From assembly GCF_003334785.1 (NCBI RefSeq), contig NZ_QOWV01000002.1: a stretch of 64,000 nucleotides of DNA; one strand, given 5' to 3'. The notes under the pieces are model-generated. The model was not told where the DNA came from and did not search any database. It saw nothing but the letters and a program-made list of their open reading frames with translations. Shown here in pieces: positions 56,662-57,089 of the stretch (the first letter of the stretch is position 1; each line of letters starts with the position of its first letter). This DNA is from Escherichia coli. Its GTDB lineage: Bacteria > Pseudomonadota > Gammaproteobacteria > Enterobacterales > Enterobacteriaceae. Both the position numbers and the translations under genes were made by a program.

Positions 56662-56937
56662 ATGAACAAAGAAAATGTGATTACCCTGGACAATCCGGTC
56701 AAGCGTGGTGAGCAGGTCATCGAACAGGTCACGCTGATGAAACCCAATGCCGGGACGCTGCGCGGTGTCAGTCTGGCAGCGATCGCGAACTCCGAAGTCG
56801 ATGCACTGATTAAGGTGCTGCCGCGCATGACGGCACCGATGCTGACCGAGCAGGAAGTCGCCGCGCTGGAACTGCCTGACCTTGTGGCGCTGGCCGGTAA
56901 GGTGGTCGGTTTTTTGTCGCCGAACTCGGTGCAGTGA
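56662..56937 (+). CDS. E: tail assembly chaperone gpE
   Basis: 91-aa ORF ending just after the TTTTTTG slippery run. Confidence 0.8.
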   Translation: MNKENVITLDNPVKRGEQVIEQVTLMKPNAGTLRGVSLAAIANSEVDALIKVLPRMTAPMLTEQEVAALELPDLVALAGKVVGFLSPNSVQ

Positions 56938-57089
56938 CGTTTCCGAAAAATCTGTCGGTCGATGACCTGATGGCGGATGTGGCAGTGATATTTCACTGGC
57001 CGCCATCAGAACTGTATCCCATGAGCCTGACCGAACTCATCACATGGCGCGAAAAGGCGCTCCGGCGAAGCGGAAACACGAATGAGTAA
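56662..57089 (+). CDS. gpE+E' frameshift-extended tail assembly chaperone (-1 frameshift at 56910-56916)
   Basis: T6G slippery sequence GGTTTTTTG; the -1 frame stays open from 56916 to TAA 57087-57089, overlapping the T start. Confidence 0.6.

What the first reader, a model, noticed from the sequence alone, without database searches (positions are those of the whole stretch)
56909..57089. gpE/E' tail chaperone frameshift (T6G slippery run)
GGTTTTTTG at 56909-56916 lies seven codons before the E stop. The -1 frame is open from there to TAA at 57087-57089, giving the extended E+E' product whose end overlaps the start of the tape-measure gene. This is the conserved tail-assembly-chaperone frameshift; its intactness indicates a functional tail module.
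Basis: partly seen in the sequence, partly recalled or inferred. Interest (0 to 1): 0.3.

Follow-up and report, generated by a model that had tools for sequence, protein, structure and literature searches.

The report
Known P2 tail-chaperone frameshift site
This is the well-known programmed -1 ribosomal frameshift site of phage P2's tail-assembly chaperone genes E/E', present unchanged in an E. coli P2 prophage; it is ordinary, and the prophage around it is defective, so the intact site does not show a working tail module.

Summary
T TTT TTG lies at 56910-56916 in X_XXY_YYZ register of gene E (56662-56937). The -1 frame is open only from 56901, and runs to TAA 57087-57089, overlapping the tape-measure ATG at 57082. 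The 428-nt E/E' segment is collinear with phage P2 (10 substitutions, no indels). The slip site and the E' peptide are identical, and the P2 reference record annotates this position as the site of the -1 frameshift. The derived 142-aa junction (…GFL-VAELG…) matches UniProt O64312.

Eighteen diverse relatives (E identity 32-75%) all place E' in the -1 frame with an in-register slippery heptamer at the homologous position. All 59 distinct close relatives keep the site.

So this is the known P2 E/E+E' frameshift. It is not novel.

The prophage (31235-61615) has a 3-kb deletion that removes L, X, Y, K, lysA/B/C and R and truncates S. Its cox gene is split by an IS3-family element, and its tail-fibre region is replaced. 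The site is intact because it is conserved and the lesions are recent, not because the tail works.

The parts
56662..56937 (+). Gene E (91 aa), the zero-frame tail assembly chaperone; stop TGA at 56935-56937
   Evidence: ORF list. 97.8% aa identity to P2 gpE. Pfam Phage_TAC_7 at residues 7-85. PHROG 103 'tail protein', 4e-45.
56910..56916 (+). Slippery heptamer T TTT TTG (X_XXY_YYZ) in register with the E frame
   Evidence: Identical, with at least 15 nt of flank on each side, to P2, where the adjacent base is annotated 'site of -1 translational frameshift'. An in-register heptamer is present in 18 of 18 diverse relatives and 59 of 59 close ones.
56901..56937 (+). 37-nt overlap in which both the E frame and the -1 frame are open; the only place a -1 shift can give full-length E+E'
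   Evidence: -1-frame stop TAA at 56898-56900, E stop at 56935-56937. This matches the '37 nt' described for P2 in PMC3931495.
56916..57089 (+). E' segment: 57 codons in the -1 frame, starting with the re-read G (GTC = Val) and ending at TAA 57087-57089
   Evidence: Translation. The peptide is identical to P2 E'. Pfam Phage_P2_GpE, 2e-21. PHROG 1756, 1e-28. Polymorphism in relatives is enriched at third positions of this frame.
56662..57089 (+). Composite E+E' coding region; predicted 142-aa frameshift product …GKVVGFL-VAELGAV…
   Evidence: The same junction is in P2 NP_046780.1 / UniProt O64312 'Tail assembly protein E''.
57082..59529 (+). Gene T (tape measure, 815 aa); its ATG overlaps the end of E' by 8 nt
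   Evidence: 98.2% aa identity to P2 gpT, full length.
56087..56605 (+). Gene FII (tail tube), immediately upstream; it completes the tube / chaperone / tape-measure order
   Evidence: 100% aa identity to P2 FII.

Best explanation
This is the programmed -1 ribosomal frameshift signal of the phage P2 tail-assembly chaperone genes E and E', carried by a P2 prophage in E. coli.

Ribosomes translating E reach GGU UUU UUG. With tRNA-Phe on UUU (56911-13) in the P site and tRNA-Leu on UUG (56914-16) in the A site, a minority slip one base 5' and re-pair on UUU/UUU. They then read GUC (56916-18) and continue for 57 codons in the -1 frame to UAA (57087-89), making the 142-aa E+E'. The majority do not slip. 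They read six more codons, stop at UGA (56935-37) and make the 91-aa gpE.

By analogy with lambda gpG/gpGT, the shared E part binds the tape-measure protein T, and the E' extension links it to the tube protein so that the tube polymerises to the right length. Neither protein is in the virion. Fixing the two products in one mRNA sets their ratio.

What is shown here: the sequence anatomy, identity to the P2 site, family membership and conservation. What is taken from the literature: the experimental proof in P2. What is inferred: the tandem-slippage details, the ratio and the protein-binding roles.
For: - Heptamer, register, frames and overlap with T.
- Collinear with P2 over 428 nt (10 substitutions, no indels), with identical slip site and E' peptide.
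- The P2 record annotates a joined E+E' CDS and a 'site of -1 translational frameshift'.
- The derived junction equals NP_046780.1/O64312.
- Pfam Phage_TAC_7 plus Phage_P2_GpE on the fusion. PHROGs tail families.
- tblastn finds E and E' as two pieces in almost all of 419 phage records.
- In 18 diverse relatives (E identity 32-75%) E' is always in the -1 frame, with an in-register heptamer at the homologous place: T6G in 12, T7 in 2, T6C in 2, G_GGA_AAG in 1, C_CCT_TTC in 1.
- In GC-rich relatives, TTT codons occur almost only at the slip site.
- 59 of 59 distinct close relatives keep the site, with no polymorphism at 56896-56918 and third-position enrichment in the E' frame.
- No SD-like motif precedes any E'-frame start codon.
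- The lambda G/GT mechanism is described in PMC5009743.
Against: - There are no expression data for this copy.
- No stimulatory element was found. The first 50-80 nt downstream fold no better than shuffles (z 0.05 and -0.48), and the distal hairpin shows no covariation. Efficiency therefore rests on the heptamer alone, as reported for P2.
- The prophage is defective, so the site may never matter for this host.
- The primary paper could not be read. The ~10% efficiency is from my memory of its abstract.
Confidence: 0.93

Rival explanations
1. E' is a separate small gene, translated on its own from GTG 56934 (51 aa), as automatic pipelines annotate it. The T-run would then be incidental.
For: RefSeq/PGAP calls a stand-alone 'GpE family phage tail protein' downstream of 'phage tail assembly protein' in all 40 RefSeq records listed, out of about 1580 E. 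coli genomes that carry the segment. The exact 51-aa ORF is on about 1000 contigs. A GTG exists at 56934.
Against: - No SD-like motif lies 4-16 nt upstream of this or any other E'-frame start.
- Candidate starts are not at a conserved position in relatives, whereas the heptamer is.
- The -1 frame is always open back across the heptamer.
- TTT codons are retained against codon bias in GC-rich phages.
- The literature reports E' as lacking an RBS and made as an extension of E.
Confidence: 0.03
2. The frame change is made at the RNA level. RNA polymerase stutters on the T6 run and adds one extra U to some transcripts, which are then read normally to give E+E'.
For: An extra U would give the same -1 outcome. 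The site is a homopolymer run, and some relatives have T7. One deposited 142-aa protein has …GFFVAELG…, as a T7 allele or read would give.
Against: - Six T is short for productive transcriptional slippage (general knowledge; known cases use runs of about 9).
- Two relatives carry heteropolymeric heptamers at the homologous place, G_GGA_AAG and C_CCT_TTC. These satisfy tandem tRNA re-pairing but are not homopolymer runs.
- The run is always in the X_XXY_YYZ register, which polymerase slippage would not require.
Confidence: 0.04
3. In this genome the site is an unselected relic. The signal is intact only because the inactivating lesions of the prophage are recent, and it now contributes nothing to phage or host.
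For: - A deletion removes L, X, Y, K, lysA/B/C and R and truncates S, and cox is split by ISEc52.
- All retained genes are still free of internal stops and about 98% identical to P2, which fits recent decay.
- Strain IAL7250 shares the same deletion junction at the same locus and has gone on to lose the whole F operon, including E/E'.
Against: This does not conflict with the mechanism. The signal would still operate whenever the F-operon mRNA is translated. Retained tail genes could be rescued by recombination with, or complementation by, a superinfecting P2-like phage.
Confidence: 0.8

Closest known systems
Phage P2 genes E and E+E' (Christie et al. 2002; NC_001895 P2p25/P2p26; UniProt O64312)
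   Same: Same genes, same position between FII and T, and the same T TTT TTG heptamer with identical flanks. Same 37-nt overlap, identical E' peptide and the same 142-aa junction.
   Different: Two amino-acid substitutions in E (N29 where P2 has S; I41 where P2 has V) and 10 nucleotide substitutions in 428 nt. The surrounding prophage is defective, unlike P2.
Phage lambda G/GT tail assembly chaperone frameshift (Levin 1993; Xu, Hendrix and Duda 2004, 2013, 2014)
   Same: Same gene order (major tail/tube protein, chaperone pair, tape measure), with a -1 shift near the end of the upstream ORF. The longer product is the minor one. The role in linking tape measure and tube is described.
   Different: No sequence similarity (stated). 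From my own knowledge, the lambda heptamer is G GGA AAG. Lambda has a non-contractile tail. The binding roles of E and E' in P2 are inferred, not shown here.
IS3-family transposase OrfA/OrfAB -1 frameshift (A AAA AAG); one copy lies in this same window, ISEc52 in cox
   Same: A tandem-slippage X_XXY_YYZ heptamer near the end of the upstream ORF gives a fusion protein.
   Different: Unrelated proteins and a different purpose (transposase dosage). From general knowledge, IS3-family sites usually have stimulatory structures, and none was found at the E/E' site.

Membership tests
P2-type E/E+E' tail assembly chaperone frameshift (Peduoviridae) | Two overlapping ORFs located between the tail tube gene and the tape measure gene | tested here: met
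   FII 56087-56605, E 56662-56937, E' frame to 57089, T from 57082.
P2-type E/E+E' tail assembly chaperone frameshift (Peduoviridae) | The downstream ORF is in the -1 frame relative to the upstream one and is open across the shift site | tested here: met
   Frame offset is -1, open from 56901. The same holds in 18 of 18 relatives.
P2-type E/E+E' tail assembly chaperone frameshift (Peduoviridae) | Slippery heptamer X_XXY_YYZ (T TTT TTG in P2) in zero-frame register within the overlap | tested here: met
   56910-56916, with codons GGT TTT TTG. Identical to P2.
P2-type E/E+E' tail assembly chaperone frameshift (Peduoviridae) | Upstream part belongs to the Phage_TAC_7 family and downstream part to the Phage_P2_GpE family | tested here: met
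   PF10109, 1.8e-11 (residues 7-85); PF06528, 2.3e-21 (residues 104-139).
P2-type E/E+E' tail assembly chaperone frameshift (Peduoviridae) | The downstream ORF lacks its own ribosome-binding site | tested here: met
   No GGAG/GAGG/AGGA motif 4-16 nt upstream of any E'-frame ATG/GTG/TTG. This is a motif scan only.
P2-type E/E+E' tail assembly chaperone frameshift (Peduoviridae) | The fusion protein is actually produced as a minor product, and both products are required for tail assembly | not testable with these tools
   Reported for P2 in the literature. Not measured for this copy.
Stimulated -1 frameshift sites (dnaX / IS3 type, with a downstream hairpin or pseudoknot) | A stable structure starting about 5-9 nt 3' of the heptamer | tested here: not met
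   50- and 80-nt downstream folds give z 0.05 and -0.48. The hairpin at 56969-57009 starts 53 nt downstream and shows no compensatory change.
Stimulated -1 frameshift sites (dnaX / IS3 type, with a downstream hairpin or pseudoknot) | An upstream Shine-Dalgarno-like element at stimulatory spacing | tested here: inconclusive
   AAGGTGG at 56899-56905 ends about 5 nt before the heptamer. AGGTG recurs in enterobacterial relatives but also encodes the conserved K/E-V-V residues, and it is absent in several GC-rich relatives.
Functional P2 tail module / viable P2 prophage | All essential tail genes present and complete (V W J I H G FI FII E E' T U D X R S) | tested here: not met
   X and R give no tblastn match, S lacks residues 1-9, and H/G are replaced by other fibre genes.
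Functional P2 tail module / viable P2 prophage | Lysis, head-completion and excision functions intact (Y, K, L, cox) | tested here: not met
   Y, K, lysA/B/C and L are absent. cox is split at 32959-34208 by ISEc52.

The most novel reading that the evidence does not exclude
The least ordinary reading still open has two parts. First, the retained and intact tail genes of this lysis-deficient, excision-deficient prophage, including the working E/E' recoding signal, might be kept by selection, for example as a reservoir rescued by superinfecting P2-like phages or satellites. Second, the SD-like AAGGTGG about 5 nt upstream might be an unrecognised stimulator of the shift in enterobacterial peduoviruses. 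The loss of the whole F operon in strain IAL7250, which shares the same deletion, argues against retention by selection.
Probability: 0.04. Interest if true: 0.3.

Novelty: already known. Interest (0 to 1): 0.07.

Why it matters
As a discovery it matters little. The site is a textbook recoding signal, demonstrated in P2 and present in about 29% of complete E. coli genomes (1582 of 5426).

It has two practical values. First, automatic annotation still splits it into two genes ('phage tail assembly protein' and a 51-aa 'GpE family phage tail protein') in the RefSeq E. coli records examined, so the 142-aa product is missing from those proteomes. Second, this case shows that an intact conserved signal says nothing about whether the surrounding prophage works: here the element is demonstrably defective.

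Tried and rejected
- **Primary paper.** Christie 2002 could not be read by DOI or PMC id. I used secondary summaries.
- **NCBIfam.** No hit for E, E' or the fusion.
- **Downstream stimulatory structure.** Rejected. The proximal 50-80 nt fold like shuffles. A 121-nt fold scored z -2.43 because of a 10-bp hairpin at 56969-57009. That hairpin starts 53 nt downstream, lies in the most conserved coding core, and has no compensatory changes.
- **Independent E' start.** Rejected for lack of an SD motif and of positional conservation.
- **The insert in cox.** My first reading, a 1244-bp insert with a 9-bp duplication, and my recollection that it was IS911 were both corrected. It is 1250 bp with a 3-bp ACA duplication and is annotated ISEc52.
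- **E. coli B prophage.** I considered whether this was the E. coli B defective P2-like prophage. No complete RefSeq genome matches the deletion junction at 99% or more over its full length, so this was not pursued.
- **Invertase crossover sites.** Not found with two repeat searches and a 26-mer scan allowing up to 5 mismatches.
- **The search for related loci.** With a single protein as query it returned only 98-99% identical relatives. These were useful for polymorphism but not for diversity. Diversity came from 18 records fetched individually.

Full report
**1. The observation**

Reading 56400-57300 and a frame analysis show TTTTTTG at 56910-56916.

Gene E runs from 56662 to 56937 (91 aa). 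Its codons across the run are GGT(56908) TTT(56911) TTG(56914), which puts the heptamer in the canonical X_XXY_YYZ register. Six sense codons follow before TGA at 56935-56937.

The -1 frame carries a TAA at 56898-56900. It is open from 56901 and runs to TAA at 57087-57089. The +1 frame is closed repeatedly. The tape-measure gene T starts at ATG 57082, so the end of E' and the start of T overlap in ATGAGTAA. All elements of the observation are therefore present.

**2. Is it more than chance?**

T6G by itself is common: 19 on the + strand and 11 on the - strand in the window. An in-register copy inside a 37-nt two-frame overlap is expected in only about 0.3% of cases, an estimate derived from those counts.

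A mechanical screen of all 153 ORFs of at least 80 aa asked for an in-register heptamer in the last 40 codons with a -1 extension of at least 40 codons. It gave four hits:
- Two are nested-ORF artefacts, inside gene A and inside yegQ.
- One is this site.
- One is A_AAA_AAG at 33282-33288 in an IS3-family element, itself a classical programmed frameshift.

**3. What it is**

The 1.6 kb around the site is 98% identical to phage P2 and its close relatives. A base-by-base comparison with the P2 reference NC_001895 (19430-19857) shows 428 collinear bases with 10 substitutions and no indel. The slip site with at least 15 nt of flank on each side and the E' peptide are identical, and E differs by two amino acids.

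The P2 record annotates a joined CDS 'E+E'' ('shares amino terminus with gpE; -1 frameshift; essential tail protein') and a misc_feature 'site of -1 translational frameshift' at the base next to the heptamer.

The junction I derived from tandem slippage (…GKVVGFL then VAELGAV…, 142 aa) is exactly the deposited P2 product NP_046780.1 / UniProt O64312 'Tail assembly protein E''.

Pfam finds Phage_TAC_7 on residues 7-85 and Phage_P2_GpE on residues 104-139 of the fusion. PHROGs gives tail families for both halves. NCBIfam has no model.

Two papers summarise the primary work (Christie 2002; Xu 2004). In P2 the -1 shift occurs at TTTTTTG and gives a 91-aa E and a 142-aa E+E'. [quoted passage not shown] No downstream hairpin is present (PMC3091744; PMC3931495). 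Each of these details is reproduced in the window. The primary paper itself was not available.

**4. Conservation**

*Across phage records.* tblastn with the fusion finds 419 phage records, almost all as two pieces, meaning the two halves lie in two frames.

*Diverse relatives.* I fetched 18 diverse relatives from Klebsiella, Yersinia, Salmonella, Burkholderia, Ralstonia, Stenotrophomonas, Pseudomonas, Zymomonas, Mannheimia, Vibrio, Aeromonas and a faecal contig. E identity ranged from 32 to 75%. In all 18, E' is in the -1 frame and an in-register X_XXY_YYZ heptamer sits at the homologous place:
- T TTT TTG in 12
- T TTT TTT in 2
- T TTT TTC in 2
- G GGA AAG in 1; the Mannheimia record itself notes this slippery sequence
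- C CCT TTC in 1

*GC-rich relatives.* In relatives with 63-67% GC, TTC outnumbers TTT by 6-10 to 1-2 in about 1.1 kb of coding sequence. The one or two TTT codons are about what the slip site itself supplies. This indicates selection on the nucleotides, not only on Gly-Phe-Leu.

*Close relatives.* Among 77 full-length close relatives from IMG/VR (59 distinct sequences), all keep T6G, the E stop and the open -1 frame. None of the 63 variable sites falls in 56896-56918. Before the overlap, 35 of 39 variable sites are third positions of the E frame. After the E stop, third positions of the -1 frame are enriched (12, against 5 and 4). The -1 frame therefore behaves as coding sequence.

**5. Mechanism and its rivals**

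*Best explanation: simultaneous slippage.* P-site tRNA-Phe and A-site tRNA-Leu slip from UUU-UUG to UUU-UUU, followed by decoding of GUC and 56 more codons. Non-shifting ribosomes terminate seven codons later.

*No stimulator was found.* The 50 and 80 nt downstream fold no better than shuffled sequence (z 0.05 and -0.48). A 10-bp hairpin at 56969-57009 starts 53 nt downstream, in the most conserved protein-coding core. In seven enterobacterial relatives it shows no compensatory change. An SD-like AAGGTGG ends about 5 nt upstream, but it also encodes conserved residues and is not universal, so that question is inconclusive.

*Rival 1, independent initiation of E' at GTG 56934.* Automatic pipelines annotate this in the RefSeq E. 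coli records examined. It is not supported: there is no SD-like motif, and candidate starts are not conserved in position.

*Rival 2, transcriptional slippage.* This would also give a -1 outcome. It is disfavoured by the short run, by the strict codon register, and by the heteropolymeric heptamers in two relatives.

*Function.* By analogy with lambda gpG/gpGT, E binds the tape measure and E' recruits the tube protein. That step is inferred.

**6.

The host is E. coli. The right flank (yegQ/trhP, yegP, baeR) is 99.7% identical to E. coli genomes. The prophage is bounded by exact 27-nt attP cores at 31235-31261 and 61589-61615.

Mapping the whole P2 genome and all P2 proteins onto the window shows three departures from P2:
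- **Deletion.** P2 5950-8942 is deleted, with the junction at about 47652-47657. L, X, Y, K, lysA, lysB, lysC and R are removed, together with the first nine codons of S.
- **Insertion.** cox is split by a 1250-bp IS3-family element at 32959-34208, with a 3-bp ACA duplication. RefSeq annotates identical copies as ISEc52.
- **Replacement.** H, G and fun(Z) are replaced at 51337-54804 by other tail-fibre genes plus a serine DNA invertase.

The deletion is not an assembly artefact. Strain IAL7250 carries the same junction, at the same position and the same chromosomal locus, in a remnant that has lost still more, including the entire F operon.

All retained genes are free of internal stops, and the F-operon promoter region is retained. 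The lesions therefore look recent.

X, R and S are annotated as essential tail genes in the P2 record. The statement that the intact frameshift 'indicates a functional tail module' is therefore not supported.

**7. Verdict**

The feature is already known and very common: 1582 of 5426 complete E. coli genomes carry the segment. The functional inference about the tail module is wrong for this prophage. Interest is low.

Noticed in passing
window 47640-47670 (junction at about 47652-47657): A 3-kb deletion relative to P2 (P2 5950-8942) joins the end of M to codon 10 of S. It removes L, X, Y, K, lysA, lysB, lysC and R. The same junction position is present in E. coli IAL7250, in a more decayed remnant at the same yegQ locus. 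A GTG at 47654 might still start a shortened S.
   Followed up: yes
window 32959-34208: A 1250-bp IS3-family element (identical copies are annotated ISEc52 in RefSeq) is inserted in the P2 cox gene with a 3-bp ACA target duplication. It carries its own orfA/orfB -1 slippery site, A AAA AAG, at 33282-33288.
   Followed up: yes
window 51337-54824: P2 H/G/fun(Z) are replaced by a different tail-fibre gene (51509-52645), a fibre-assembly gene (52647-53087), two inverted fibre/assembly ORFs (53059-53661 and 53661-54203, minus strand) and a serine DNA invertase (54225-54824). This layout resembles a Mu G / P1 C-type invertible host-range switch, but no clear crossover inverted repeats were found.
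   Followed up: partly
window 61592-61677 (-), with 61589-61615 and 31235-31261: The CyaR/RyeE sRNA (Rfam, 100.7 bits) overlaps the attR copy of the 27-nt P2 att core, so the prophage sits at the 3' end of cyaR next to yegQ. The exact core repeat at 31235-31261 marks attL.
   Followed up: partly
window 56969-57009: A perfect 10-bp inverted repeat (CTGATGGCGG … CCGCCATCAG) lies inside the E' coding region and drives a z of -2.43 for a 121-nt fold. It lies in the conserved DDLMAD…HWPPSE core, and relatives show no compensatory changes.
   Followed up: yes
window 56934-57089, and public annotations: Automatic annotation in the RefSeq E. coli records examined calls E' as a stand-alone 51-aa 'GpE family phage tail protein' instead of a frameshifted E+E' (about 1580 genomes carry the segment). 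One deposited 142-aa E. coli protein (QTN08932.1) has the junction …GFFVAELG…, as expected from a T7 allele or a sequencing error.
   Followed up: partly
window 14896-14992 (+) and 22847-22917 (+): Rfam hits in the host flank: a TPP riboswitch (71 bits) and naRNA4 (64.5 bits).
   Followed up: no
window 48150-48932 (-) and 50901-51512 (+): orf30 (87.7% aa identity) and gene I (82% aa identity) are clearly more diverged from P2 than their neighbours (98-100%). This suggests mosaic exchange near the replaced fibre region.
   Followed up: no
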